Shown here piece after piece: positions 1-47,368 of a DNA stretch of 64,000 nucleotides. Below the pieces are notes generated by a model. The model was not told where the DNA came from. It ran no database searches and worked only from the letters and a program-made list of their open reading frames with translations. The position numbers and the translations under genes were made by a program. The stretch is from a virus, in the IMG/VR virus record IMGVR_UViG_3300020411_001722, positions 1-64,000 of that record. The stretch is one strand, 5' to 3'. Positions within the stretch are counted from its first letter, which is position 1; every line of letters starts with the position of its first letter.

Positions 1-3000
1 TATCCAACGTTGGAAGAATCACTCATATCAAAGATATAATTATGATTCCTTGTTAGCATCAATGTAGGATGCTTGGTGTATATGTCTACTCTAGCAATAC
101 TTCCATTAACAAATGCTGGTTCAGCACTAGGGATAGCACGAGTAGTGAATGTGAAATCTCTAGATGAGAATACTTCCTTAACGAAGAATGAACCATTAAA
201 TTCATTAGTAGAGAATCCCTCAGTAAATAGAATATTACCAGCATCAAAATTGTGCCTTGAGTTAGCAACACAATAAACATCTTCAGTTCTTGTTTGACCA
301 CCAGTTGTTAATAGAATAGTCTTATCAAGAATTGCCTGAATTGTTACTTTCTTAATACTGTTGATATTATTAATCTGTAAAACAGTTGGTTCATCTACTT
401 TAGGATTAACTGTAATAGTTCCACCAAGACTTAGACTATCATTAACAATAGAATTAGAATCATGATAGATTTCATTAACTTGGATCTGATAATATGCTTC
501 AGCAGGATCAAATGTTTTAAATCTAGCGTAATTGCTAAGAGGATCAAATGTCTTCTGCCATTCCCAAGTTACAGTACCATCAGTTGCAGTACCAGTAGTA
601 TGTGTAGGAGCAACCTTAGAAGTACGACCACTTACTGTACACTTATAAAGTTGTCTACCATTATAAACTAGATCACCAATTTCATGTATAACTAACTGCT
701 TCCATGCTGGTTCTCTAGGAACAGGATATGCAGTATTAGCAAGGTCAAGTTCTAATGCATCAGTTGCATTACTTGTATAATCCCATGAAACACCACCATC
801 AGATTGATTACCAGTACTATGTGAAGGTCTATTTGGACCAGAAGTAGCATTTGTAGTAGCAGAGTAGAATTTACCATTTGCATATACAACATCTCCAGCA
901 GTGTATGCAGTGGCAGCCTTCCATTCCGCTTCTACACGTTCGGCCGTGAACACTATGTCGGAGATTACATTTGATGCAGTATCAGCAGCAGTAGTAGTTT
1001 TGAATTTGTCTGTAGTATTAAATGTTGCTCCTGCAGGATATATTTTACCAACCTTATATGTGTTTCCAAGACCAGGAGTTGCAATTTCACCTTCTGGTAC
1101 TTCTACGATAGTTCCAAATGCACCGACAACATCAGAATCATTATACTGTTGTAAGATAGTTCCCTTAGTAAATTTAACGTCCTGATTAAATACCATCTTT
1201 TGAACGCTATCAATCTTAGTATAAGAAGCGTCCTTCATATAATACTTCGGTGTAACAACAGGACTAATCTTTAACTTCTTACCACCTGGAGTTGGTACAG
1301 TAGAAGTCTTAGATCCATACACAAATGGATCATTATCAAAGGTATAAGTTCCAGGTGTGAGTTGACTATTTACATCAGAGTAATCAAGTATTTGTAATCC
1401 ACCAGGTCCAATTGTCCAATTGGTTACTACAGGTCCAGTAGTTGAGTTATATGTCCAATTTGTATCCTCAGCAATAATAGCAGAAGTATGATCACTCAAT
1501 CCACTTAAGGTATATGTTCCACGTTTTAAATGCTCTCTATCAAGTTTTACGAGTGCAATACTGTTGTTATTAGTACGTACAGCAATCTCTTCTGTAGGAA
1601 CAGTGAATGATGATCCAGTATACTGAGCAGTTGCATCTACAACAAAGTCATCAACATTACCAAGTAATGATGTAGTTGCAGTAGGAGTTAATAAACCTCC
1701 AACATATACATTATCTATTGGTATATCTGTAGTTGTAGACCACTGTCCAATCTGAGTACCATTACTAAAGACGGTATATGTGAAATTACCGAGAGTTGGT
1801 TCATCCTTAACAAAAGCAATATGAACCCAAGCATCAGCAGCAAAGTTAGTCCAAATAGTTGCACTAGCGGTCTCCATGACCTCTACACCAGCAGCAGCAA
1901 TTTTAACCTTACCGTAATCACCACTAGTCTGATCACCATCAATGAAAAGTCTTAATTCATTAGAAGGATTGGAAGCATCATTAGGTTCAGTGAAGAAGAA
2001 TGTTGGATAACTGTTAGCAGCAGTATGAATACTACTCTCAATTCTAAACCATGCTTGAAGTGTCCATTCCTTACCGTTTAAATTGAGGTCTGTAATACTA
2101 TAATGGTTTTCTGCTTGGAACTTAATTGAATCAGTACCAAACTTCTTAATAGTGCCATCAATAATAGCATTTGTTGCATTATAAAGAGATGCAGTACCAT
2201 TATTCTGTTTTGTTTGATCAAATACGTTAATTACACTTGCAATATTGAAGGTTATATCAGAATAACCATAATTACCAACTTGAGAATCAGTTACAGTAAG
2301 TACTTCACTAGCCTTGTAATTACGACCAGTTTTATTCATCTCAATAGTCGTTGCACCATTAGCAGCAACATTAACATTGATAGATGCATTAACACCAGAT
2401 CCACCAGCAGCACTAATATTTGTATACTGTATTGCCTGTAAAGTTGCAACGTCAAATGTTAGGTTAGCACCACCAAAGTTACCAATCTGAGCATCAGTTA
2501 CCGTGAATACATTACCTAATTGATGTTCTTGACCAGGATTAACAACTGTAATTGCTGATGCAGCACCACTACCATCAATTGTAATATTAAATGTAGCATT
2601 CTCACCATTACCATTACTTGTAGGTGCAACTCCGTTGTATTGATGACCTTGTATGGAAGCAACGTCCATAACAAGAGCACCAGCACCCTGTCCACCTAGA
2701 GTAGAATCCAATATTGTTACTTGATTTGATAAAGCAAAATTCTGTCCACGATTGGTTGCAGTCAATGTTGTGAAAGCACCCAAATTATCAATTACTACAT
2801 CAAATACAGCATTAATACCAGATCCATTAGTAGACCATGCAGTTATACCTGAATATGTAATTCCTTGAGTTCCAGTTACCTCAAATGTGAAGTTAGCAGC
2901 ACCACGATTACCAATACTAGCGTCAGCAATAGTGATAACTTCACCTACAGCATATCCACGACCAGCATTAGCAATTACAAGAGAAGTGATAGCACCACTG

Positions 3001-6000
3001 CTATCCACAGTAATATCGAATGTGCCACCAGCACCGTTACCAGTGGTACTAAGTGGAGCGACCCCATTGTATAGAGCACCACCAGATACAGTAGCAACAT
3101 TGCAAGTAATTGCAGCAGCACCATTATTACCAACATTGGCATCAGCGATAGTTAATGTGTCTCCAGCCTGATATCCATTTCCTGGGTTAGTAACGTTTAA
3201 ATTAGCAACAGAACCATCTGTATTAATCGTAACTTGGAACGTACATCCTGTACCACTACCGTTAGTAGAAGTTGGTACATTACTGTATAATGGAGGTGCC
3301 TTCAGAGTATTTACCTGGAAGTCTATATTTGCAGCACCGCTATTACCTAAATTACTATCTTGGATCTGTAATTGATCATCTTCTGCATAACCTAATCCAG
3401 CAGCAGTTGCAACAGCAAGTGTTACAGCACCATTGGCATCAATAGTGACATCAAAGGTTGCTCCACTACCATTACCAGTTGTTGAGGTTGCAGCAACACC
3501 ACTATATGTTTGAGGAGCAACGATTGTAGCAACATCACATGTTAGAGCAGGAGCACCGTTATTTCCTAAAACTGAGTCTGCAATTGTAATGGTATTATCT
3601 ACTGCATATGCCAAACCTCCGTTATTACCTACAGTTACAGCAGTTGCAGCACCAGAACCATCGATAGTAACATTCAATTTCAATGCATTGTTACCATTAC
3701 CAGAGTTGGTAGTAGCAACGTTATTGTACTGGAATCCACCCAATCCACTTACATCAAAAGTGACATTAGGTGCACCACTATTACCTATAGCAGAATCAGC
3801 AATTGAAAGTGTTTCTGTATTATAATATCCAATACCACCATCATTAATGACAAGTGATACATCACCTGTAGATGAAACGTTAACATCAAATGCTGCATTA
3901 TTACCTGTTGAAGCACCATCAGTACTTGTTGCAGAGACATTCGTATAAGAGAATCCACCAATAGATGCAACATCAAAAGTAACATCTGGTGCACCACCTC
4001 CACCTAACTGTGAGTCAGCAACAGTGATTGTTTCGTTTATAGCAAAGGATATACCACCATTAACGATGTTTATAACAGGTTGACCATTTGACTGAATGTC
4101 AATATTGAATACTGCAGTCTGACCATTTGCAGCACTTGACCATGTTACAGCATTATATTGACCAGGAGTACGAAGACCATTAGGACCACTAACATTACCA
4201 ATAGAAAGAATTTTACCACCACGTAATGTATTGGCAGCAGAAATATTACTCATTAGAGTAATTCTTCCACCTCTTCTCTGAGCAGCAGCACCAATTGTAT
4301 CAACTGTTCCTACAACTCCACCACGTAGAGGATCAGCAGCAGAAATATTATCTACTGTATTAACTGCACCACCACGAAGAGCATCAGCACCAGAAATATT
4401 ATTAACAGTTGAAACTGTACCTGCACGAAGTACTTCTGCTTGAGATTGATTACCAGTGGTTTGAATAACTCCACCACGACGTAGATCAGCACCAACACCA
4501 GTTGTTAGGTTACCAATATTTGTTGCTCTTTGTTGATCAGCACCAGAAATACTACCAACACTTGCAACACCAGCACCACGAGTAGCAGATGTACCAGTAA
4601 TTGTATCGATAGATGCAATAAATCCACCAGCACCAGTGTCAGTGGTACCATTAAACCTATAAGAAGCAACCTGATCTGATACTTGCTTATTGCTTATAGT
4701 AATTACGTCACCAGAGTTATCAATGACATGTGATTTTGCTTGTAGTCCAACTGTACCTACAGATTCAATGGTAGATTGCTTAATCATCGTACCATCAAAC
4801 TTGATGTAGTTTAAACCTACCTTACGATCATTTTCAGCATACTTAACATCAGTTATAAGAACAATATTTCCAAAAATGTCAATACCTATATCTGCATGCC
4901 TAATAGATTCGAAAGTTACACTAGGAGCAAGGATTCTATAGAAATCCCAAACAGGATTATTTGCATTAATTTGAGTTCTAGGAAGTTTTGCTAATCCAAC
5001 AGCAGAATTTTTCTGTGCAGCATTATTGTAGATATCCCAAACCAAATATAGATCATCATATTCATCAATTGTAAATCTAGGATTCTGAGGTCTTCCTCCA
5101 GATGGATTGATGTTTTTAACGTAATTAATCTCTATGTTACTACCATCAAACCAGAATTCACCTAGTAAGATATAGTAATCAGTCATATTCATACCAACGA
5201 ACTGATATGTAGAATTACCAAGATAATGAACTTGGTACATACGTTCGTCATCATCTTCAGAAGAGAATTTCCTCTTCTCTCTCATTTCACCATTCTCATT
5301 CAACTGAATGACCCACATATCATCTGGGTCAGGAGAATTGGTATCTGTATAACCACAAATATAAACACGCTCATCTTCACCAAGAGTAACACCCATTCCA
5401 TAATCACGACGTGTTACACCAGAAACACCAGCAATTTCCTTCTGGTACATTACTTGTCCTTCTGGACTATTAGCATTATCAAAACCAGACTCATACTTAA
5501 CTAAAAGGATATCTGGAGCAAAGTTTGCACTTACGTTATCATATTCAGTCTCACCAATAACATAGATGATATCATTCTCACCACGCTCATCCAAATACAT
5601 GTTATTGTAACGAGCAGTCTTAATTGTTCCTGAAATTGGTTCTAATGTACGATCCCAGATTAAATCACCCAAATCATCGAATTTTGCAATCCATGCAGAC
5701 TCAGTACCATCTGGTTTAGTTACAGAACCACAAACGTAGGTATAACGTAATGAACTTTGAATAGAATGCTTTACATTGAAACTAGAGGTTGATTCTTTAT
5801 ATTCATCAAAGAAATAACGAGTTTTCTTAAATACCTGTGGATGAGATACACGAATTTGTGGTGGATTAGCAGTACTGTAAGAATTACCAGAGTTGGTGAT
5901 ATTTACCTTATTTGCTTGTCCAGTTTGTGTAACATCAATACTAATAAGAGCATCCTGACCACTTTCAGCAATTAGTTCATATGTTGGTGGAATTTGCTCA

Positions 6001-9000
6001 TTATAACCAACACCAGTTTGAGATATTGCAATATCTTCAATACCCGAAACAACCTTAGTATAATACTTCTTATTTGTGTTATCTGGTATTACAGTTGAAG
6101 AAACGATAACTTCGTCACCTACACTTAGGTCATGGTTAGAAGTAGTAGTGATTTTACCGTAAACTATATCATCTTCAATTAATTTACTATATCCAAGTAT
6201 TGTAATACCTTCTACAGAAGAAACCTCTGCAGATGCACCAAAACCATCAGTTCCAGTATTATCAAAGAAAATAACGTCTTGAACCTGATATGATACACCA
6301 GGATTCTCAATAACGAATCCATCTATCTGTGCAGACTCAAATTTCGTAGTTGTTTCAACTTCGATGTCAACTCTAGACTCAGTAGAGACAGTTGGGAAAT
6401 AATCGTAAATTTGAAGGGTTGATTCTTCAGTAATTGGGATAGATTCCAATTGTTCGTTAGAATCGATCAATCCATCATTATTAGTATCCTGAATTTCAAG
6501 AATTATTGGATATCCCTCTAATTCGGTTGTTATAGTATCAGGTTCCTTATTAGGTGCACGATCAACGTCAATATCAACATTAGCGTATGGATCACGGTAA
6601 CGAACAACACCTGAAGGTATATTGTCCTGTGTTGCTTCCTGACTCAAGTTCCATGTGTCTGGTTGTGAGTAGAACTGTGGACCAAGGATATATGGGAACA
6701 ATGCAACACCAGAATTTGATTCATCGATGGTTACAAAGTAAGCATAGGTACCATCTGGGTAATCTGGTGTTTTACAGAAACGACCATTATAGATATCAAG
6801 ATCACCTAACTGGAAAGCATATTCATAGTCATCTACAAATGATCCTGCAGGATATGTACCTTCAGGAGCAGGTGACTGTTCAGCACCATTAACTATAGGA
6901 GGTAATGGAGGTCCATCACCACGAGTAGGTGTTGGGTTAGAATCAATCTCATAAACCAATGCATCCTTAAGTCTATATGAAGTACGTAGTCTTCTTAGAC
7001 CACTATTTTGATCTGTAGGATCAATATAACCATATGGACCATAAATTGGGTTTCCATCAAATGCCCATCCCAAAATTGGGGAATGTTCGTTATTTTGGGC
7101 AACTTCTTGGAAAGTATTAGTTTGTGGATCTAAGAATACGTTATCACCAACAACATAACGCAATTCCTTTGGATCTACTAAGTGAGCATACTCACCACCA
7201 AATTGGTTGTTATATCCAGTAAATACATAACCTCTAGCAAAATCATAGTTGGAAGATAGGTTATGTTGAAGGTTTTGAGTCCATTGGAAGACATTTGACT
7301 GGAATTCAGAATTTTCACCAACTGCTTCCAAACGAATAGTGGTTAATCCTTGAGTATAGTTAATACCCTTGTTTAAAATCTGAATAGTGGTAACTTTACC
7401 CTTATCTTCACCAATAGTACCAATAACTGCTTTAGCAACAGAACCAAAACCATCACCATTGATTACAACGTTAGGTGCAGTGGTATAACCGTTACCAGAG
7501 TTGATGATAGCGATAGATACGATTCTACCGTTAATAACAATAGGTTGTGCTAATGCACCTTCACCAGAATTTAATTTAACATCAGGAAGTGAAGTATATC
7601 CAGAACCACCACTAGAAAGAATTACAGATTGAATAGGACCACGAACTTGAGCAGTTGCAGTTGCACCAGTACCGTTACCACCTGTAATAGAGATTAGAGG
7701 TTGCGAAGTATATCCAGTGCCAGGTTGTTCAACAAGAACTCTACTTACTCGACCACCTGTAATGACTGCTTGTGCAGTAGCACCAGTTCCACCACCACCA
7801 ACGACAGATACAAGAGGTTGTGTTGTATAACCAGTTCCACCAGTGTCAACTTCAATACTAAACAGAGATCCGTTTACAACTACCTCTGCAGCAGCACCAG
7901 TTCCACCACCACCTGTTATTTCTAAATTTGGTTTGCTACCAGCATCATATCCAGTACCACCATTAAGAATTTCAATGCTAGTAATAGGACCATAACGTAC
8001 AAAAGTGCTAGACTTGTAAGACCAGATAGAAACACCGTTTACCCATGTTCCAATTGGAGAATTGGGAGCAATTGTCTCACGTTTTGATACTGTAGTAACA
8101 ACTCTAGGGAAACGTAGCAATTTACGCTGGTTTCCTGGAATTAATGCAGTTCCAGTGAAAGGACCAACCTTATAGTTAGGTAAACCAGTTGCAGCAACAT
8201 AAACGTACTCTTTATTAAAGAAAGTGTTCTGTACGTTTGATGTAAATGGAGTTACAGCAGTATTAATTGAAGAAATATCAGATTTACCTCTATTAAGGTC
8301 TACTGATAGTAAAATATTTCCCTGCGGAATAATATCCGTAGGAGCAAGCATTTGATAAGAGAATGTATAGTCATCTAGACGAGCAGTAACCTGAAAAGTA
8401 CCATTATAGACTGTTGGGTTAGCACCATAGACAGTAACAAGGTCTTCTACCAATAATCCGTGTGGATTGCTAGTTACAATGGTTGCAGTTTGATTATTGT
8501 CTCCACCAGGATTTACAGAGTCAACTCTAATTAGTTTTTTAACGTTATAGAGCCAAGAATCGAGTTTTTTGTCTGCTTCACTAGATCCAAGTGCAGCAAC
8601 AGTTAATTTATCACCTTCTAGGTAATATGAACCAGTATCATCAAGAAGTGTGCTTCCTGCTTCAGCAATACCTAAAATACGGAGTTTACATTCGGTTGGT
8701 AGACCTTTATTTACGTAAACATAGATTTCTGACTGAACAATTGTTCCTGGATCCCAATCTTCAACAATTGAGTTCTTAGAACGAGTACATTCGATAAATT
8801 GGTTCAAAGAACGCTCTTTATACTGTACTTGCTCAACATCGTTAAGTCTAATAGTACCATTTCTCTCTGGCCATCCAATTGTGGAGTCAACGGTAATAAT
8901 TTGATCAGTTTGACTTAAATATTCAACTAATTTCGTTTTATATGGAATTATGAAATTTCCAGTTAGTGTTTCTTCGGAAATCGCCAATTCATAGATTACA

Positions 9001-11438
9001 TCAGTACCCTCAATGATAGAAATCACGTTTTCTATCAATGCAGACGCATCTCCCACATTAGGATCGACTTCATCTGCAGTTTGAGTCAATTGACCATCAA
9101 TAAGGTTTAAAGGATCACCCTCAATTAGACTTGCACGAAGAATTGTGTCAACTACCCAAGTTGCAGCAGAAGGAGATATAACTTCATCCTTTGGATAGTA
9201 AACATCAACCTGTTCACCGAATAAAATCTTGAATAAGAACTGCGAAGCGGTTTTAGTACCCTTAGAAACGTAGAAATCACGAATCTTCTTGATAACCTGT
9301 ACAGGATTGACTTTTGTGTAATCTACATTAAGCGTAGGTAGGTATTGCCGACGCAATTTGTCAAATACCTGATAAATGAAGAGTGTATCAATAGAAGTGA
9401 TTGCGCTACCAGCACTATGATTGCTTAAACGTAAATCTGCCTCTGTTGCAAAGATCTGATTACCGTAATTATCATATGAAATGGTTCCACTAGTACCACG
9501 CACACATCCTACTAATGCAGAAGGTTTATATTCTTGTCCCGCAGTTGTTATATCAAATCCTGTAACTTCATCAAACCCTACATCAACAGAAGAACGTGCT
9601 GCAGCAGGTTCCGCAATATAAACCTTTGGTGGATTAGCAGGATCATACTTTGTACCAAAATTAGTAATACTAATATCAGTAATCTCACCATTAAAGATAG
9701 TTGCAACCGCAGTTGCGCCAGAACCACCTATTGCTACTCCAGCAGCATCCTTTCTATCATCTACAATGTATACAGATGGCGCATCTGTATAACCAGTACC
9801 ACCAGTTAATAGTTCAATATCCGTAACTTCACCGCCACCTATTACAGTACCATCTACATCTAGTAATTGATCCGTAACAGTTACACCCAGTACTTGCGCA
9901 CCAATTGGTTGAATAATACGTGCTCTAGGAGGTGTTAGATATCCTCTTCCCCTATTAGTGATTATGACACTAGAAATCTGTCCTTCTGGAGTTAATAGTG
10001 TAGAGGCAGCTGCCTGTATTCCTCCTACTGGTGGTGGATCTATGTAAATGTATGGAGGATTTTCATATCCTTGACCATTTTTACCTGCAGGTATAGTAAT
10101 ACTTCCTACAACAAGTCTACCTTCCGAATCAATAGTAGGATCAGTAATTTCTGCTCCACCAGGATTCTTAAATGATACAGAAGGTACAAAATCATACCCA
10201 GAACCAGAATTAGTGATAGTAACACTAGAAACCAATCCAGTAGCATCATCAACTGTTAATGATGCAGTTGCCTGAGTACCATTAGGGTTACTTGGGGGTG
10301 CAATTTCAATACTTGGTGGGTTATATGTTGTATATCCTTGTCCACCATCAATTAACTGTATATCTTTAACACCACCAACTAGAGTACGTGCTGTAGCACC
10401 AACACCACCAAGGTCAGATGGTGTAATAGTAACCTTTGGTGCAAAATCTAGACGATAACCACTACCACCCTCTTTAACAATAAGGTCAATTAACGCACCA
10501 GCATCATTAACACTAGAAACAACTTCAGCACCAGATCCAACAGCAAGTGAGGTATACTCAATTGATCGAATATGGATTGTCTCTGAAGAAGATAACTCAG
10601 TTCCAATAAATTCTATGTAATTACCATCAGTAGCAGTCTCATATAGGACATAATCAGTATATGCTTCTAAGAACTGACCATTCCTATTAACAAACAAACC
10701 AATCGCTGATACAGGAGTATAGAACCCTGCATTAAAACGAAGTTTATGTGTTTTAGACGCATCAATAGGTGTGATGGTATCTAAGGTATCGATAACAGTA
10801 CCAGCAAACCCAACCATATAAACGATAGAGGTTGATGCAATATTATCAGTACCAATTCTTGCTCTAGGTGTCGTTAAGAAGCGAATATTACTACCTTCTA
10901 TAACGTAGTCTGTACCAGGTATCTGAGCAATTCCATAAACCCTTACAAGAAGGTGTTCTGCTGATACTGGTGTAACTGGTTCTCCTAAAAACCTTAATGG
11001 GAATGTATTTTCTACTCCATCAAACTGACTGAATGGCGATTCTAAGGTTTGTCTCTTCTTATTGAATTCATTAAGTGAAATGCCAGGTGTCAAAATAGCA
11101 TCAGGACCCCTAGTGATGCTTTCATAGTAAATTACTTCATTATCAATGAGAACGCTTCCATCATTCTCAACAAAACCATCAATTGACTCTACTTCTATTA
11201 ACGACTCATCAAATCCTATATTTTTTAAAAGTGTTGTCCCTGCAGATAACGTTTTCGATGTATATGAATCAACATCAAGGTATAGATTGATGTTGTTTAG
11301 TATATCGTAAGGCTTACCAGTCTTTTCCTGTGACTTATAATATTCAAACAGAAAATTGACAAATTGTTGGTCTTCCTCTCTAATAAAGTCGGGTACTTGG
11401 TACTTGACCCTATCAGAAACACTTATGTTTTTACGCAT
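1..11438 (-). CDS. gp7: Giant baseplate wedge initiator (gp7-like), >3810 aa, 3' end beyond window
   Basis: Not in the ORF track because no stop lies in the window. Manual translation from ATG at 11438 gives MRKNISVSDRVKYQVPDFIREEDQQFVNFLFEYYKSQE. The same frame was verified at 6453-6488, 2232-4680, 550-935 and 3-44. Lies directly after gp6. Contains GSGY-x-P-x-V repeats, a YHYH-like HSPILGWAFDGNPIYGPYG motif, a propeller-like region, LamG and CBM-like modules. Confidence 0.85.
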   Translation of the reverse strand, partial: MRKNISVSDRVKYQVPDFIREEDQQFVNFLFEYYKSQEKTGKPYDILNNINLYLDVDSYTSKTLSAGTTLLKNIGFDESLIEVESIDGFVENDGSVLIDNEVIYYESITRGPDAILTPGISLNEFNKKRQTLESPFSQFDGVENTFPLRFLGEPVTPVSAEHLLVRVYGIAQIPGTDYVIEGSNIRFLTTPRARIGTDNIASTSIVYMVGFAGTVIDTLDTITPIDASKTHKLRFNAGFYTPVSAIGLFVNRNGQFLEAYTDYVLYETATDGNYIEFIGTELSSSETIHIRSIEYTSLAVGSGAEVVSSVNDAGALIDLIVKEGGSGYRLDFAPKVTITPSDLGGVGATARTLVGGVKDIQLIDGGQGYTTYNPPSIEIAPPSNPNGTQATASLTVDDATGLVSSVTITNSGSGYDFVPSVSFKNPGGAEITDPTIDSEGRLVVGSITIPAGKNGQGYENPPYIYIDPPPVGGIQAAASTLLTPEGQISSVIITNRGRGYLTPPRARIIQPIGAQVLGVTVTDQLLDVDGTVIGGGEVTDIELLTGGTGYTDAPSVYIVDDRKDAAGVAIGGSGATAVATIFNGEITDISITNFGTKYDPANPPKVYIAEPAAARSSVDVGFDEVTGFDITTAGQEYKPSALVGCVRGTSGTISYDNYGNQIFATEADLRLSNHSAGSAITSIDTLFIYQVFDKLRRQYLPTLNVDYTKVNPVQVIKKIRDFYVSKGTKTASQFLFKILFGEQVDVYYPKDEVISPSAATWVVDTILRASLIEGDPLNLIDGQLTQTADEVDPNVGDASALIENVISIIEGTDVIYELAISEETLTGNFIIPYKTKLVEYLSQTDQIITVDSTIGWPERNGTIRLNDVEQVQYKERSLNQFIECTRSKNSIVEDWDPGTIVQSEIYVYVNKGLPTECKLRILGIAEAGSTLLDDTGSYYLEGDKLTVAALGSSEADKKLDSWLYNVKKLIRVDSVNPGGDNNQTATIVTSNPHGLLVEDLVTVYGANPTVYNGTFQVTARLDDYTFSYQMLAPTDIIPQGNILLSVDLNRGKSDISSINTAVTPFTSNVQNTFFNKEYVYVAATGLPNYKVGPFTGTALIPGNQRKLLRFPRVVTTVSKRETIAPNSPIGTWVNGVSIWSYKSSTFVRYGPITSIEILNGGTGYDAGSKPNLEITGGGGTGAAAEVVVNGSLFSIEVDTGGTGYTTQPLVSVVGGGGTGATAQAVITGGRVSRVLVEQPGTGYTSQPLISITGGNGTGATATAQVRGPIQSVILSSGGSGYTSLPDVKLNSGEGALAQPIVINGRIVSIAIINSGNGYTTAPNVVINGDGFGSVAKAVIGTIGEDKGKVTTIQILNKGINYTQGLTTIRLEAVGENSEFQSNVFQWTQNLQHNLSSNYDFARGYVFTGYNNQFGGEYAHLVDPKELRYVVGDNVFLDPQTNTFQEVAQNNEHSPILGWAFDGNPIYGPYGYIDPTDQNSGLRRLRTSYRLKDALVYEIDSNPTPTRGDGPPLPPIVNGAEQSPAPEGTYPAGSFVDDYEYAFQLGDLDIYNGRFCKTPDYPDGTYAYFVTIDESNSGVALFPYILGPQFYSQPDTWNLSQEATQDNIPSGVVRYRDPYANVDIDVDRAPNKEPDTITTELEGYPIILEIQDTNNDGLIDSNEQLESIPITEESTLQIYDYFPTVSTESRVDIEVETTTKFESAQIDGFVIENPGVSYQVQDVIFFDNTGTDGFGASAEVSSVEGITILGYSKLIEDDIVYGKITTTSNHDLSVGDEVIVSSTVIPDNTNKKYYTKVVSGIEDIAISQTGVGYNEQIPPTYELIAESGQDALISIDVTQTGQANKVNITNSGNSYSTANPPQIRVSHPQVFKKTRYFFDEYKESTSSFNVKHSIQSSLRYTYVCGSVTKPDGTESAWIAKFDDLGDLIWDRTLEPISGTIKTARYNNMYLDERGENDIIYVIGETEYDNVSANFAPDILLVKYESGFDNANSPEGQVMYQKEIAGVSGVTRRDYGMGVTLGEDERVYICGYTDTNSPDPDDMWVIQLNENGEMREKRKFSSEDDDERMYQVHYLGNSTYQFVGMNMTDYYILLGEFWFDGSNIEINYVKNINPSGGRPQNPRFTIDEYDDLYLVWDIYNNAAQKNSAVGLAKLPRTQINANNPVWDFYRILAPSVTFESIRHADIGIDIFGNIVLITDVKYAENDRKVGLNYIKFDGTMIKQSTIESVGTVGLQAKSHVIDNSGDVITISNKQVSDQVASYRFNGTTDTGAGGFIASIDTITGTSATRGAGVASVGSISGADQQRATNIGNLTTGVGADLRRGGVIQTTGNQSQAEVLRAGTVSTVNNISGADALRGGAVNTVDNISAADPLRGGVVGTVDTIGAAAQRRGGRITLMSNISAANTLRGGKILSIGNVSGPNGLRTPGQYNAVTWSSAANGQTAVFNIDIQSNGQPVINIVNGGISFAINETITVADSQLGGGGAPDVTFDVASIGGFSYTNVSATSTDGASTGNNAAFDVNVSSTGDVSLVINDGGIGYYNTETLSIADSAIGNSGAPNVTFDVSGLGGFQYNNVATTNSGNGNNALKLNVTIDGSGAATAVTVGNNGGLAYAVDNTITIADSVLGNNGAPALTCDVATIVAPQTYSGVAATSTTGNGSGATFDVTIDANGAVTLAVATAAGLGYAEDDQLQIQDSNLGNSGAANIDFQVNTLKAPPLYSNVPTSTNGSGTGCTFQVTINTDGSVANLNVTNPGNGYQAGDTLTIADANVGNNGAAAITCNVATVSGGALYNGVAPLSTTGNGAGGTFDITVDSSGAITSLVIANAGRGYAVGEVITIADASIGNRGAANFTFEVTGTQGITYSGITAWSTNGSGINAVFDVVIDNLGAFTTLTATNRGQNFALSNQVTILDSTLGGQGAGALVMDVASIQGHQYNGVAPTSNGNGENATFNITIDGSGAASAITVVNPGQEHQLGNVFTVTDAQIGNFGGANLTFDVATLQAIQYTNISAAGGSGVNASINVNVAANGATTIEMNKTGRNYKASEVLTVTDSQVGNYGYSDITFNIASVINVFDQTKQNNGTASLYNATNAIIDGTIKKFGTDSIKFQAENHYSITDLNLNGKEWTLQAWFRIESSIHTAANSYPTFFFTEPNDASNPSNELRLFIDGDQTSGDYGKVKIAAAGVEVMETASATIWTNFAADAWVHIAFVKDEPTLGNFTYTVFSNGTQIGQWSTTTDIPIDNVYVGGLLTPTATTSLLGNVDDFVVDATAQYTGSSFTVPTEEIAVRTNNNSIALVKLDREHLKRGTYTLSGLSDHTSAIIAEDTNWTYNSTTGPVVTNWTIGPGGLQILDYSDVNSQLTPGTYTFDNDPFVYGSKTSTVPTPGGKKLKISPVVTPKYYMKDASYTKIDSVQKMVFNQDVKFTKGTILQQYNDSDVVGAFGTIVEVPEGEIATPGLGNTYKVGKIYPAGATFNTTDKFKTTTAADTASNVISDIVFTAERVEAEWKAATAYTAGDVVYANGKFYSATTNATSGPNRPSHSTGNQSDGGVSWDYTSNATDALELDLANTAYPVPREPAWKQLVIHEIGDLVYNGRQLYKCTVSGRTSKVAPTHTTGTATDGTVTWEWQKTFDPLSNYARFKTFDPAEAYYQIQVNEIYHDSNSIVNDSLSLGGTITVNPKVDEPTVLQINNINSIKKVTIQAILDKTILLTTGGQTRTEDVYCVANSRHNFDAGNILFTEGFSTNEFNGSFFVKEVFSSRDFTFTTRAIPSAEPAFVNGSIARVDIYTKHPTLMLTRNHNYIFDMSDSSNVG
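2232..4622 (-). repeat. Protein repeat block in gp7: 9 x ~17-aa segments (4161-4622) followed by 9 x ~71-aa segments (2232-4160)
   Basis: Manual translation. Heads resemble TVSTVNNISGADALRGG; bodies resemble xYxxV...GxGATFxVxIDxxG...GxGYxxxxxITIADxxLGxxGAxxLTFDVxxI. Confidence 0.9.
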
Positions 11439-45178: not shown

Positions 45179-47368
45179 TTATTCCTTCGGTAGGTGAATA
45201 ATAGTGTAATCTGATGATGCAGTTTCAAAACCTTGAACTACAACACTAACACCTGTACCTGATGCCCTTGCAATCAAATTCTGACCAGGACCAACGACAA
45301 TTGCAGCATCACGTTGTTGTGTATTTGCAGCAACATCTAAGTCATAATGTAGATAATCTTGATCTTCAATTGCAGTAACGTCAACATGAACACCAGTCGA
45401 AACAGTATCAACATCAAATGTCAAGTTCGCTGCTCCACCAGCACCAAGAACTGAGTCAGCAATAGTAATAGTTTCAGAGTTAACAAACCCCTTACCACCA
45501 TCTACTATAGTTACAGTAGCAGCACCAGAACCATCAACTACAACATTAAATGTTGCATTAGTTCCACTGTTCTGTGCGGAATATGCTACAGAATTATATG
45601 TACCAGCAGTTCTACTACCATCTGCACCACTCTGAGAAGTAATGGTTAAAATCTTACCAGTAACAACCTCTGTCAATACACGATTAGCAGCAATTTTAGT
45701 AGGAGTATCATATAACAAATCACCATTTGCAAATGCTTGAGATCCGTGCTGTAAAGATACCTTCAATAATGCATTAGCAGCGTCATAAGCATGTACATAA
45801 CCATAAGGTCCAGGAGTTATACCACCTGATTGTACTGTTTGAGTACTACCACCAATGGTGAATGTATCAGCAACAGCAAATGGTTGTGCTTGTAAATCAT
45901 AGATAAAGATCTCTTCATATGCAGGTGCCAATACTGTAGAGAATTCAAAACCAGCACCCTCGTCAGCAGCAGGACCACCAGCAGTACCAGCGTCACTATA
46001 TGCATATAAGGTTGTAGGTATGTTATCATCAATAGTTATTTGAGAATAAGAACCCGCTTGACCAGCAGTACCAACTTTCTGAACACCAGTAGTAAATTCT
46101 GTACCAGTTGGGGAGTTTGCACCCTCTTCATTATCACTGGAGAATTTCAATGGGTGACCAGTATTACTTGCATCAACCTGATCAAACTTATAAACACGCT
46201 CATTATTTAAAATGATTGGTTCAACGATCTCATGATCTGTAGCAGCAACACCAGTAGTTGATAATACGAAACTAGGTGTTACTTGAACACTCTCTGACCC
46301 AACTATAAAGTTACAGGTTGCAGTTGCATTACTTGTACCAAAGGTAAGGTTTTCTCCCTCTGTGAAATAGTTCACGAGATAATCACCACCATCTGTAAGT
46401 ACAGTAACAGCAGTACCATTATTATGATCTACATCCGCAGTACCATACATACCACGTGTTACAGTTAAGTCATTACCATTGACATCTGTAACTTCTAGAA
46501 TTTCATTTTCACATATAATAAATGCACCCGTAAGGAATCCCGTTGCATCTGTTATAGTTAAAGTTACATCACCAGCAGCATAAGTTGCACCTTCATTAAT
46601 TGTCGAAGCAGTTGCAGAAACACTATATGCTTTCACAAATTCTCCTTCTTTAATTGCTCTAGCAGTGGTTGCATGTGCACCACGTGTTACAGTCAATGTA
46701 TTAGTAGATGTGTTAATACCACCACTATCAATAGTAATAATTTCAGTGTCAGCAGCACTCTTTAAACCAACAGTCAACTTCATTGCATCTGCAAGACCCG
46801 TGTTACGGGAAACTTTTATTGAAGTTGTACCTGAAGCAACGTCAGCAATCTCAATATGTGCTGTTTCATCTGCAGCAAGATAACCACGATTAGTTGCAGT
46901 TAATCCTGAAGTTGCACCTGTGATGGTTTCTCCACCAACAGGAATACCAACAACACTATCAAGTGTAATATCAGAGATATCTACAAACTTAGTATAGTAT
47001 GTGATGGTATCCGTAGGTTTAAATACATCGAGAATTTTTGCCTGTGCACCATTATTAGTGGTGATCTGTGCACCAGGAATTGCTTCCTGATATGTAAATC
47101 CTGGACTGAGTTTTAGTTTATATCCACTAATAGGATTACCCTTTGTGAACTCATGGGTGGAAGCAACACCACCATTGGAGTTCTCTTGTGGTCCCGATAC
47201 TCGAAGAATTTGATCATAATCTCTTAATGCGAGACGATAATCCAGCACACCTGCTGTGCGGTTGGCAGCAGTAACGAGCACACTTGCTGTGTGATCAATA
47301 TCTGCTGTATAAACCACTGTATTCGTAGTAGCGGCAAGATTTGTTGCTTTAAGTCTTCCTGCTGTCAT
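45179..47368 (-). CDS. Virion structural protein with repeats and one intact copy of the gp7 nested domain (45401-45655)
   Basis: LTVTRG..GT repeats, YKFDQ.DASNTGHPLKFS module, KILTITSQSGADGSRTAGTYNSV...LTFDVDTV. Confidence 0.7.
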   Translation of the reverse strand: MTAGRLKATNLAATTNTVVYTADIDHTASVLVTAANRTAGVLDYRLALRDYDQILRVSGPQENSNGGVASTHEFTKGNPISGYKLKLSPGFTYQEAIPGAQITTNNGAQAKILDVFKPTDTITYYTKFVDISDITLDSVVGIPVGGETITGATSGLTATNRGYLAADETAHIEIADVASGTTSIKVSRNTGLADAMKLTVGLKSAADTEIITIDSGGINTSTNTLTVTRGAHATTARAIKEGEFVKAYSVSATASTINEGATYAAGDVTLTITDATGFLTGAFIICENEILEVTDVNGNDLTVTRGMYGTADVDHNNGTAVTVLTDGGDYLVNYFTEGENLTFGTSNATATCNFIVGSESVQVTPSFVLSTTGVAATDHEIVEPIILNNERVYKFDQVDASNTGHPLKFSSDNEEGANSPTGTEFTTGVQKVGTAGQAGSYSQITIDDNIPTTLYAYSDAGTAGGPAADEGAGFEFSTVLAPAYEEIFIYDLQAQPFAVADTFTIGGSTQTVQSGGITPGPYGYVHAYDAANALLKVSLQHGSQAFANGDLLYDTPTKIAANRVLTEVVTGKILTITSQSGADGSRTAGTYNSVAYSAQNSGTNATFNVVVDGSGAATVTIVDGGKGFVNSETITIADSVLGAGGAANLTFDVDTVSTGVHVDVTAIEDQDYLHYDLDVAANTQQRDAAIVVGPGQNLIARASGTGVSVVVQGFETASSDYTIIHLPKE

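What the first reader, a model, noticed from the sequence alone, without database searches (positions are those of the whole stretch)
2232..4622. Nine-level Russian-doll (nested) domain stalk in gp7: 9 first-strands followed by 9 domain bodies
Seen: reading N to C there are nine ~17-aa segments in a row (FIASIDTITGTSATRGAG, VASVGSISGADQQRAT, NIGNLTTGVGADLRRGG, VIQTTGNQSQAEVLRAG, TVSTVNNISGADALRGG, AVNTVDNISAADPLRGG, VVGTVDTIGAAAQRRGG, RITLMSNISAANTLRGG, KILSIGNVSGPNGLRTPG; 4161-4622). They are followed by exactly nine ~71-aa segments, each starting xYxxV and ending ..LG..GA..(L/V)TFDV..I (ends near 3960, 3741, 3522, 3303, 3087, 2868, 2652, 2439, 2232). Only head 9 is contiguous with a body (LRTPG-QYNAV). 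That contiguous head+body matches the intact single domain in gene 45179-47368 (KILTITSQSGADGSRTAG-TYNSV...LTFDVDTV). Inference: each domain has been inserted into the R-x-G|x-Y loop of the previous one, so head n pairs with body 10-n. The chain would run out as one extended strand and fold back through nine beta-domains, forming a rigid looped stalk with both ends at the base. The equal 9/9 count is what nested insertion predicts, and ordinary tandem duplication would not give it. Length changes would need coordinated gain or loss at two separate places in the gene, which would be an unusual way to build and tune a phage appendage.
Basis: partly seen in the sequence, partly recalled or inferred. 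Interest (0 to 1): 0.92.

Follow-up and report, generated by a model that had tools for sequence, protein, structure and literature searches.

The report
Nine-deep self-nested domain stalk
A giant baseplate-type protein of a T4-like cyanophage carries an 804-residue insert in which nine copies of a small beta domain appear to sit one inside the next, so the chain runs out as nine single strands and returns through nine domain bodies, nested more deeply and regularly than the solved cases I found.

Summary
In detail: nine ~17-aa heads (nt 4622-4161) are followed by nine ~71-aa bodies (nt 4160-2223) in a minus-strand ORF of more than 3812 aa. Only head 9 abuts a body. Head 9 plus body 1 matches the complete single domain in gene 45179-47368.

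The nested reading is supported on several lines.
- AlphaFold2 of H8-H9-B1-B2 gave pLDDT 90 and pTM 0.75. Solved one-domain folds align either to H9+B1 or to H8+B2, skipping the inner domain.
- Heads H7-H8 docked on bodies B2-B3 scored 0.47 against 0.01 for the best control (weak support).
- 62 orthologues lack the block, which is one clean insertion into a short loop.
- Sister cyanophage arrays nest before the last strand. All 39 have equal core and tail counts (3/3 to 6/6), in mirror-image order.

Weak points: the whole-array fold failed, I could not read model coordinates, and this protein's orthologues show only 0 or 9 levels.

The closest solved precedent is the recursively nested Si3 insertion of cyanobacterial RNA polymerase. 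I rate this a new variant of a known kind, in an unnamed domain family. This scan has already noted the same 9/9 architecture in other genomes.

The parts
3..11438 (-). Giant virion/baseplate-type structural protein (more than 3812 aa; C-terminal end off the window)
   Evidence: ORF list and translation. phrog_701 'virion structural protein' E=0 and phrog_2885 'baseplate wedge subunit' E=1e-195. The orthologue in S-SZBM1 is annotated 'baseplate wedge initiator'.
4638..4673 (-). Host segment just before the insert (..QVASYRFNGTTD), conserved in array-less orthologues
   Evidence: Alignment A3 with S-SZBM1, P-RSM6 and P-TIM40.
2223..4634 (-). The whole nested block (aa 2269-3072, 804 aa), a single insertion relative to array-less orthologues
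   Evidence: A3 shows one gap between 'YRF(D/N)xxxD' and 'FDxTKQ'. 62 of 68 IMG/VR orthologues lack it.
4161..4622 (-). Nine head strands H1-H9. Boundaries (high to low nt): 4622, 4568, 4520, 4469, 4418, 4367, 4316, 4265, 4214, ending at 4161
   Evidence: Tandem Repeats Finder reports a 51-bp period over H4-H7.
4215..4265 (-). H8, modelled as a beta strand that belongs with body B2
   Evidence: AF2 strand at residues 2-6, pLDDT about 81. VIA alignments span model residues 1..178 with only 66-87 residues aligned.
3951..4214 (-). Innermost complete domain: H9 contiguous with B1
   Evidence: 45% identical to the single domain at 45374-45655. pLDDT 88-97. VIA matches to model residues 16..105.
3732..3950 (-). 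Body B2 (five strands, no first strand of its own)
3510..3731 (-). Body B3
3291..3509 (-). Body B4
3075..3290 (-). Body B5
2859..3074 (-). Body B6
2643..2858 (-). Body B7
2430..2642 (-). Body B8
2223..2429 (-). Body B9 (outermost, proposed partner of H1)
1638..2111 (-). Laminin_G_3 / concanavalin-like domain (PF13385), starting about 35 aa after the insert
   Evidence: Pfam 33.9 bits against a cut-off of 27.6, residues 47-204 of window:1239-2249.
45374..45655 (-). Uninterrupted single copy of the domain (head+core+tail) in the 729-aa fibre-like gene 45179-47368
   Evidence: The gene matches phrog_693 'tail fiber protein' at E=7e-90.

Best explanation
The block is a recursive self-insertion of one small six-stranded beta domain of about 88 aa. 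The domain consists of head strand H, four core strands with a short helical turn, and tail strand T. Each copy is inserted into the loop between H and the core of the copy outside it. The chain therefore lays down nine H strands on the way out. It turns in the only uninterrupted copy (H9+B1) and returns through nine bodies, with B(10-n) completed by H(n).

Adjacent domains are joined twice: once by the head-to-head loop going out, and once by the tail strand of one body running straight into the first strand of the next coming back. Both ends of the 804-aa block meet. This lets it sit as one insertion in a short loop at the start of a LamG-like domain of a giant baseplate-type protein.

Shown here: the anatomy; the clean insertion; a confident model in which H8+B2 form a domain equivalent to H9+B1; and equal, mirror-ordered counts in sister arrays. 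Inferred: pairing at levels 1-6; that the result is a stiff hairpin rod of roughly 20-25 nm; and that it projects from the baseplate as a spacer or host-surface contact.
For: 1. The head is an integral part of the domain. Single-domain homologues align from the head onward, and the H9 strand has pLDDT 96. Bodies B2-B9 have no head of their own.

2. AF2 of H8-H9-B1-B2 used 38 rows, of which only three orthologue rows span H8 and B2. It gave mean pLDDT 90.0, pTM 0.75 and all five models at 86.7-90. H8 is a strand at pLDDT about 81.

3. In the VIA search, solved single domains of about 90 aa align either to model residues 16..105 (79-81 residues aligned) or to 1..178 with only 66-87 aligned. The same folds do both: eRF3 3j5y_B at 15..104 against 5lzt_jj at 1..177, and EF-Tu 4r71_A against 4iw3_B. 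No good match spans 1..105. H8+B2 is therefore a discontinuous domain equivalent to H9+B1.

4. Complex prediction with B2B3 plus H7H8 gave 'weak support'. The score was 0.47 and the best of 3 controls 0.01. That mark was reached by 58 of 80 solved complexes and 2 of 110 mismatched pairs. At 0.60 or under it was reached by only 7 of the 80, and by both of the mismatches that passed. The runs agree in at least 98% of contacts and the partner's pLDDT is at least 72. My own alignments were used, so these counts hold only roughly.

5. The array is one clean insertion between residues that are adjacent in S-SZBM1, P-RSM6 and P-TIM40, and it is absent from 62 of 68 orthologues.

6. The same domain family nests at other loops.
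- (head+core) x n followed by n tails in P-SSM4 (6/6), S-TIM4 (4/4), S-MbCM6 (2/2) and P0008 (3/3).
- 39 distinct orthologous arrays: 3/3 (19), 4/4 (15), 5/5 (3) and 6/6 (2), with no mismatch.
- Unit types in the order D-C-(C'')-B..-A are mirrored by tail types a-b..-(c'')-c-d.
- P0012 reads as a balanced bracket word of 9 opens and 9 closes, and P0052 as 4/4.
- A whole domain sits inside the core hairpin in L017, L022 and L033.

7. The three observed insertion sites (H|b1, b2|b3, b4|T) are exactly the loops that lie opposite the termini in a six-strand up-down order (inferred from the strand order).
Against: - The fold of the whole array was poor: mean pLDDT 57.9 and heads below 50. Nothing is shown directly for levels 1-6.
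- I could not read model coordinates, so the H8-B2 pairing is deduced from aligned ranges, pLDDT and DSSP strands rather than from contacts.
- The docking score is only a weak pass, and it concerns two pieces of one chain.
- Head-to-head and body-to-body similarity matrices correlate better under parallel indexing (r=0.56, P=0.002) than under nested indexing (r=0.24, P=0.13). I cannot explain this.
- Whether the strand before the insert belongs to the LamG fold is not shown. The 'ends must meet' argument is therefore suggestive, not strict.
- No experimental structure exists.
Confidence: 0.82

Rival explanations
1. Two independent repeat arrays. The nine heads form a separate beta meander or solenoid (or a flexible linker), and the nine bodies are self-sufficient domains in ordinary tandem. 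The equal number is a coincidence.
For: The whole-array AF2 model gave the heads low confidence. In the two-level model, H8 and H9 could in principle pair with each other, since I could not read contacts. Some family members carry (core+tail) tandems with only cryptic heads, for example P0015 and P0021.
Against: The head is conserved as part of the single domain. VIA alignments group H8 with B2 and not with H9+B1. Heads dock on bodies when H9 and B1 are absent, and body pLDDT rises from about 60 to 81-85 (weak support). Counts are equal in every array examined, including 39 sister arrays spanning four count classes. A linear array of about 25 nm could hardly be inserted between adjacent residues of a host.
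Confidence: 0.07
2. Intermolecular strand exchange. The heads of one copy complete the bodies of a neighbouring copy, as in donor-strand exchange of pili, so that copies in the baseplate are cross-linked or polymerised.
For: The principle of an incomplete beta domain completed by a donated strand is the same. Baseplate proteins are present in multiple copies. The parallel-index similarity signal would fit a parallel, staggered exchange.
Against: H9 is joined to B1 by the same short loop as in the single domain, which forces an intramolecular start. AF2 builds the two-level nest confidently within one chain. The block is a clean loop insertion whose ends should meet. Mirror-ordered types in sister arrays fit hairpin pairing.
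Confidence: 0.06
3. Heads do complete bodies within one chain, but in a non-nested order, for example H(n) with B(n), or a cyclic ring of nine domains rather than a hairpin rod.
For: The Mantel-type test favours parallel indexing (r=0.56, P=0.002).
Against: H9-B1 contiguity and the modelled H8+B2 domain fix the first two levels in nested order. There is no linker long enough to return from H9 to a body beside H1. Per-unit divergence correlates slightly better with the nested order, though not significantly.
Confidence: 0.03

Closest known systems
Si3 insertion in the trigger loop of cyanobacterial RNA polymerase beta' (RpoC2)
   Same: One small beta domain (the sandwich-barrel hybrid motif, SBHM) is inserted recursively into copies of itself. 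This gives an elongated multi-domain body whose two ends return to one loop of a host. It has eight SBHMs, four of them built from distant chain segments (PMC10895346). An ECOD/AlphaFold survey describes it as a six-level nest (PMC13114784).
   Different: The fold family is different (no SBHM match). Nesting in Si3 is irregular and branched, with several continuous domains. Here all nine levels use the same loop, so the sequence separates cleanly into nine first strands and nine bodies. The host is a phage virion protein, and the same family also nests at two other loops with variable depth.
Sister arrays in cyanophage 'YadA domain-containing structural protein' (P-SSM4 PSSM4_087, S-TIM4 ORF_108) and S-MbCM6_084-type virion proteins
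   Same: They carry the same domain family (E=5e-19 by tblastn; core HMM hits). They obey the same rule that the number of split-off strands equals the number of domains.
   Different: The insertion point is before the last strand, so the pattern is (head+core) x n followed by n tails. The depth varies from 2 to 6 between orthologues.
Donor-strand complementation in chaperone-usher pilus subunits
   Same: A beta domain that lacks one strand is completed by a strand encoded elsewhere.
   Different: In pili the strand comes from another polypeptide and builds a polymer. Here it most likely comes from the same chain. Fold similarity is negligible (CssA 4b9i_A, Z=2.6).
Ordinary tandem rods of small beta domains (phage fibre and decoration proteins, bacterial adhesins) and simple A1-B-A2 domain insertions
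   Same: They are rods made of small beta domains, and a single-level insertion of one domain into a loop of another is common. Members of this family also occur as plain tandems (P0011 and P0014).
   Different: In a plain tandem every unit is complete and the two ends lie far apart. Here eight of the nine units are split by about 90 to 780 residues, and the ends coincide.

Membership tests
Recursive (nested) self-insertion architecture, as in Si3 of cyanobacterial RNAP | A domain's sequence is interrupted by a complete copy of the same domain, repeatedly | tested here: met
   Sequence anatomy. The modelled discontinuous domain H8+B2 encloses H9+B1. Levels 1-6 are inferred by regularity. Relatives show unambiguous one-level nests.
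Recursive (nested) self-insertion architecture, as in Si3 of cyanobacterial RNAP | The two ends of the nested block return to one point of a host protein | tested here: met
   There is a single clean gap against three array-less orthologues, and the block is absent in 62 of 68 orthologues.
Sandwich-barrel hybrid motif (SBHM) fold of Si3 | The domain has the SBHM fold | tested here: inconclusive
   No SBHM or RNAP chain appeared among the Foldseek or VIA matches. The best Z was 4.3, to small beta barrels of phage baseplate, needle and sheath proteins and EF-Tu-like domains. There was no Pfam hit.
Laminin_G_3 / concanavalin A-like domain (PF13385) as host | Pfam match above the gathering score next to the insert | tested here: met
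   33.9 bits against a cut-off of 27.6, starting about 35 aa after the insert.
Laminin_G_3 / concanavalin A-like domain (PF13385) as host | The insertion point lies inside the folded domain, so that the strand before it belongs to the jelly roll | tested here: inconclusive
   The Pfam model starts after the insertion point. A profile search of solved structures gave nothing usable.
T4 gp7-type baseplate wedge initiator | Sequence match to a curated baseplate-wedge family | tested here: inconclusive
   Pfam Baseplate_wedge PF23786 scored 25.9 bits, below the cut-off of 27. PHROG 'baseplate wedge subunit' families match strongly (phrog_2885 at 1e-195). The S-SZBM1 orthologue is annotated 'baseplate wedge initiator'.
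T4 gp7-type baseplate wedge initiator | Location in the baseplate of the virion | not testable with these tools
   This needs virion proteomics or cryo-EM.
Ordinary tandem repeat array | Each repeat unit is a complete, contiguous domain | tested here: not met
   Bodies B2-B9 lack the head strand that all single-domain homologues have, and the nine heads lie together upstream.
Donor-strand complementation (chaperone-usher pilins) | The missing strand is supplied by another polypeptide | not testable with these tools
   The one-chain model is confident, but oligomeric exchange cannot be excluded by computation here.

The most novel reading that the evidence does not exclude
The block may be one instance of a family-wide 'nesting grammar'. 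An unnamed six-stranded domain of about 88 aa multiplies by inserting into any of its own three distal loops (after strand 1, in the strand 3/4 hairpin, or before strand 6). Selection keeps the numbers of split-off strands and cores balanced. The products would be hairpin rods of tunable length, from 2 to at least 9 levels. Because their ends coincide, such rods could act as plug-in projections in loops of unrelated virion proteins: a LamG loop of the giant baseplate protein, fibre-like proteins, and a protein with a sheath-like N-terminus.
Probability: 0.55. Interest if true: 0.85.

Novelty: new variant of a known kind. Interest (0 to 1): 0.78.

Why it matters
Recursive domain insertion is known from very few solved cases, and those are irregular. 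This case is regular and nine levels deep, and the whole family can be read from sequence like balanced brackets. That makes several open questions testable.
- How does such a chain fold, given that the outermost domain cannot close until about 780 residues later?
- How are the two separated repeat tracts kept equal in number?
- Does double-stranded linkage between domains make a stiffer rod than a plain tandem?

For phage biology it points to a way of adding a long projection to a baseplate or fibre protein without disturbing the host domain. For annotation and structure prediction it is a warning: runs of short 'linker-like' repeats next to arrays of domains that look truncated may be halves of the same domains.

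Tried and rejected
- AF2 of the whole 822-aa block with 7 orthologue rows gave mean pLDDT 57.9 and heads below 50. It is unusable for pairing.
- Pfam gave no family for the block.
- Foldseek against the PDB gave nothing at E<=0.001. The VIA wide search gave nothing at Z>=5, so the fold remains unnamed. BFVD returned only uncharacterised cyanophage proteins. The ESM Atlas returned only unnamed clusters.
- Mixed alignments of paralogous triples and head fragments were misplaced by MAFFT and were discarded.
- I threaded each head onto each body using mutual-information pairs learned from 126 contiguous domains. The nested order did not stand out (P=0.13-0.77).
- Per-unit divergence of heads against bodies gave r=0.1-0.35 for the nested order and -0.3 to -0.05 for the parallel order. 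With n=9 this is not significant.
- Count variation within this protein's own orthologues: only 0/0 (62) or 9/9 (4 complete, 2 cut by contig ends). The test was uninformative.
- A profile search of solved structures, meant to place the insertion inside the LamG fold, returned only a chance match.
- P0013's 9/9 array is not one-to-one orthologous to this one, so module transfer is not shown.
Full report
**What is there.** The left end of the window is occupied by one minus-strand ORF, 3..11438 (3812 aa), whose C-terminal end runs off the window. It is a giant T4-like cyanophage virion protein. It matches phrog_701 at E=0 and 'baseplate wedge subunit' phrog_2885 at 1e-195. All database relatives are Synechococcus or Prochlorococcus myoviruses, and the S-SZBM1 orthologue is annotated 'baseplate wedge initiator'. 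The curated Pfam Baseplate_wedge model scores just below its cut-off (25.9 against 27), so the 'gp7' label rests on annotation by relatives.

**The repeats.** Residues 2273-2426 are nine ~17-aa heads. Residues 2427-3072 are nine ~71-aa bodies. The heads share h-x-(S/T)-h-x-x-h-S-x-A-x-x-x-R-G-G with an invariant R. The bodies share seven invariant columns. Only H9 abuts a body.
- H9+B1 is 45% identical over its full length to an uninterrupted domain in the fibre-like gene 45179-47368.
- HMMs of head and body find nothing else in the window.
- No Pfam family covers the block.

**The head belongs to the domain.** A search of 1.84 billion cluster representatives found 234 relatives. Single-domain relatives align to the query exactly over H9+B1, starting at the head. 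Bodies B2-B9 therefore lack a conserved strand of their own domain, and eight spare copies of that strand lie upstream.

**Structure prediction.** The whole block with seven orthologue rows folded poorly (mean pLDDT 57.9, heads below 50). I then folded the two innermost levels, H8-H9-B1-B2 (window 3732-4265), with a checked alignment of 38 rows. Single-domain relatives lie on H9+B1, body pairs lie on B1B2, and only three orthologue rows span H8 and B2.
- The result was mean pLDDT 90.0 and pTM 0.75, with all five models at 86.7-90. H8 is a beta strand at pLDDT about 81.
- Each domain reads head, four core strands with a short helical turn, then tail. The tail strand of B1 runs straight into the first strand of B2.
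  - Solved one-domain folds of about 90 residues align either to model residues 16..105 (H9+B1, 79-81 residues aligned) or to 1..178 with only 66-87 residues aligned. The second pattern is what H8 plus B2 without the inner domain would give (10+73=83 for the top hit).
  - The same folds appear in both modes: eRF3 at 15..104 in 3j5y_B and at 1..177 in 5lzt_jj, and EF-Tu in 4r71_A against 4iw3_B.
  - No good match spans 1..105.
  - In the model, H8+B2 is therefore a discontinuous domain equivalent to H9+B1.
- All Z scores are 4.3 or less and Foldseek finds nothing in the PDB, so the fold has no close solved relative.

**Docking.** Heads H7-H8 (34 aa) against bodies B2-B3, with H9 and B1 left out, gave 'weak support'. 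The score was 0.47 and the best of three controls 0.01. That mark was reached by 58 of 80 solved complexes and 2 of 110 mismatched pairs. At 0.60 or under it was reached by only 7 of the 80, and by both mismatches that passed. The runs agree in at least 98% of contacts and the partner's pLDDT is at least 72. My own alignments were used, so the counts hold only roughly. The pLDDT of the bodies was 81-85 with the heads and 59-60 with unrelated peptides. These are two pieces of one chain, so this shows compatibility, not affinity.

**The block is one insertion.** Orthologues in S-SZBM1, P-RSM6 and P-TIM40 align on both sides. They have nothing between '..YRF(D/N)xxxD' and 'FDxTKQ..', where this protein has 804 residues. 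Of 68 orthologues fetched from IMG/VR, 62 lack the block, four complete ones have 9 heads and 9 bodies, and two are cut by contig ends. A Laminin_G_3 domain starts about 35 residues after the insertion point. I could confirm the clean insertion but not that the preceding strand is part of the jelly roll. Either way, 804 residues placed between neighbouring residues of a conserved protein fit a structure whose ends coincide. Nesting gives that; a linear nine-domain rod does not.

**Comparative evidence from the family.** The same domain occurs in several arrangements.
- *Plain tandems.* P0011 and P0014.
- *Nesting before the last strand.* In the 'YadA domain-containing structural protein' of P-SSM4 and S-TIM4, and in S-MbCM6_084-type proteins, the pattern is (head+core) x n followed by n short tail strands: 6/6, 4/4, 2/2 and 3/3.
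  - Among 39 distinct complete arrays of the P-SSM4/S-TIM4 orthologue group, the counts are 3/3 (19), 4/4 (15), 5/5 (3) and 6/6 (2), with no mismatch.
  - Unit types occur in the order D-C-(C'')-B..-A, and tail types in the mirror order a-b..-(c'')-c-d.
  - Extra B units lie next to the innermost unit and extra b tails next to the first tail. Where the last unit is B-like, the first tail is b-like. This mirror order is what hairpin pairing predicts, and the opposite of parallel pairing.
- *Balanced bracket words.* Taking head+core as an opening bracket and a tail as a closing one, P0012 reads as a balanced word of nine opens and nine closes that never goes negative. P0052 reads as 4/4.
- *Nesting in the core hairpin.* In L017, L022 and L033 a whole domain sits inside the hairpin of another, whose two halves match the two halves of the core model.
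- *A second head-first array.* P0013, a protein with a sheath-like N-terminus, has its own nine heads of a different motif and nine bodies. They are not one-to-one orthologous to those here.

With the strand order, the three insertion sites (after strand 1, between strands 3 and 4, before strand 6) are the three loops at the end opposite the termini. Insertions there would stack domains in a line. This last point is inference.

**What speaks against, or is unexplained.**
- Levels 1-6 are extrapolated.
- Pairing is inferred from aligned ranges and not from contacts.
- Head-to-head and body-to-body similarity matrices correlate better under parallel indexing (r=0.56, P=0.002) than under nested indexing (r=0.24, P=0.13). 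This may only reflect which units are most consensus-like, but I cannot explain it.
- A covariation threading test and a rate-correlation test were uninformative.
- Exchange of strands between copies of the protein cannot be excluded by computation.

**Comparison with what is known.** The nearest solved precedent is Si3 in the trigger loop of cyanobacterial RNA polymerase. It has eight sandwich-barrel hybrid motifs, four of them assembled from distant chain segments (PMC10895346). A 2026 survey of 48,551 insertion events describes it as a six-level recursive insertion and singles it out as its example of extreme complexity (PMC13114784). The present block works on the same principle. It uses a different, unnamed fold, is deeper and strictly regular, sits in a phage virion protein, and belongs to a family that nests at three loops with variable depth. 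My literature searches found no description of it, nor any structure of a marine T4-like cyanophage baseplate. Earlier entries of this scan describe the same 9/9 architecture in other genomes and reached the same reading. This window is therefore a further orthologue, not a first sighting.

**Verdict.** The nested interpretation is supported at about 0.8 confidence. The function (a stiff hairpin projection from the baseplate protein, acting as a spacer or surface contact) is inference. I class it as a new variant of a known kind, of high interest for protein architecture and phage structure.

Noticed in passing
L017:~2300-2900 (ORF residues 70-250); likewise L022 and L033: A third nesting site. 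In a family of cyanophage structural proteins a complete head+core+tail domain is inserted into the hairpin between core strands of another copy. The two halves of the outer copy match core-model positions 2-32 and about 21-54.
   Followed up: partly
P0012 residues 1336-2110; P0052 residues 1344-1670: These are mixed arrays. If head+core is read as an opening bracket and a tail strand as a closing one, they form balanced words: 9/9 in P0012 and 4/4 in P0052. In P0012 recent duplications appear to add an open in one place and a net close in another.
   Followed up: partly
P0013 residues 490-1290: A 2075-aa protein with a tail-sheath-like N-terminus has nine head-like units of a different motif (x-F-G-Q-A-I-D-T-I, period 15-18 aa) followed by nine bodies. 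The bodies resemble each other more than they resemble the bodies in this window, so this looks like an independent or homogenised 9/9 array in another host protein.
   Followed up: partly
window 2223-4622: Similarity among heads mirrors similarity among bodies better when the units are indexed in parallel (H5, H6, H8 with B5, B6, B8; r=0.56, P=0.002) than when indexed as nested. This is unexplained. It may reflect which units are closest to consensus, or independent gene conversion in the two tracts.
   Followed up: partly
window 10383-10559, 10191-10304 and 5862-5969 (aa 294-352, 379-416, 1824-1859 of the giant protein): The many GGxGY-type ~40-aa repeats elsewhere in the giant protein give weak hits to the body model (14-16 bits). 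The core of the nested domain may therefore derive from this widespread hairpin repeat.
   Followed up: no
window 7002-7274 (aa 1389-1479): A YHYH domain (PF14240; 29.5 bits against a cut-off of 25) lies inside the giant structural protein.
   Followed up: no
P0021 residues 180-530; P0024 residues 500-750: These are (core+tail) tandems of 4 and 3 units, preceded by about the same number of short alternating-hydrophobic strands (for example VGTVSVS, INAVTVT, VGVFTFS, VGNFTIS). They may be shallower head-first nests with degenerate heads.
   Followed up: no
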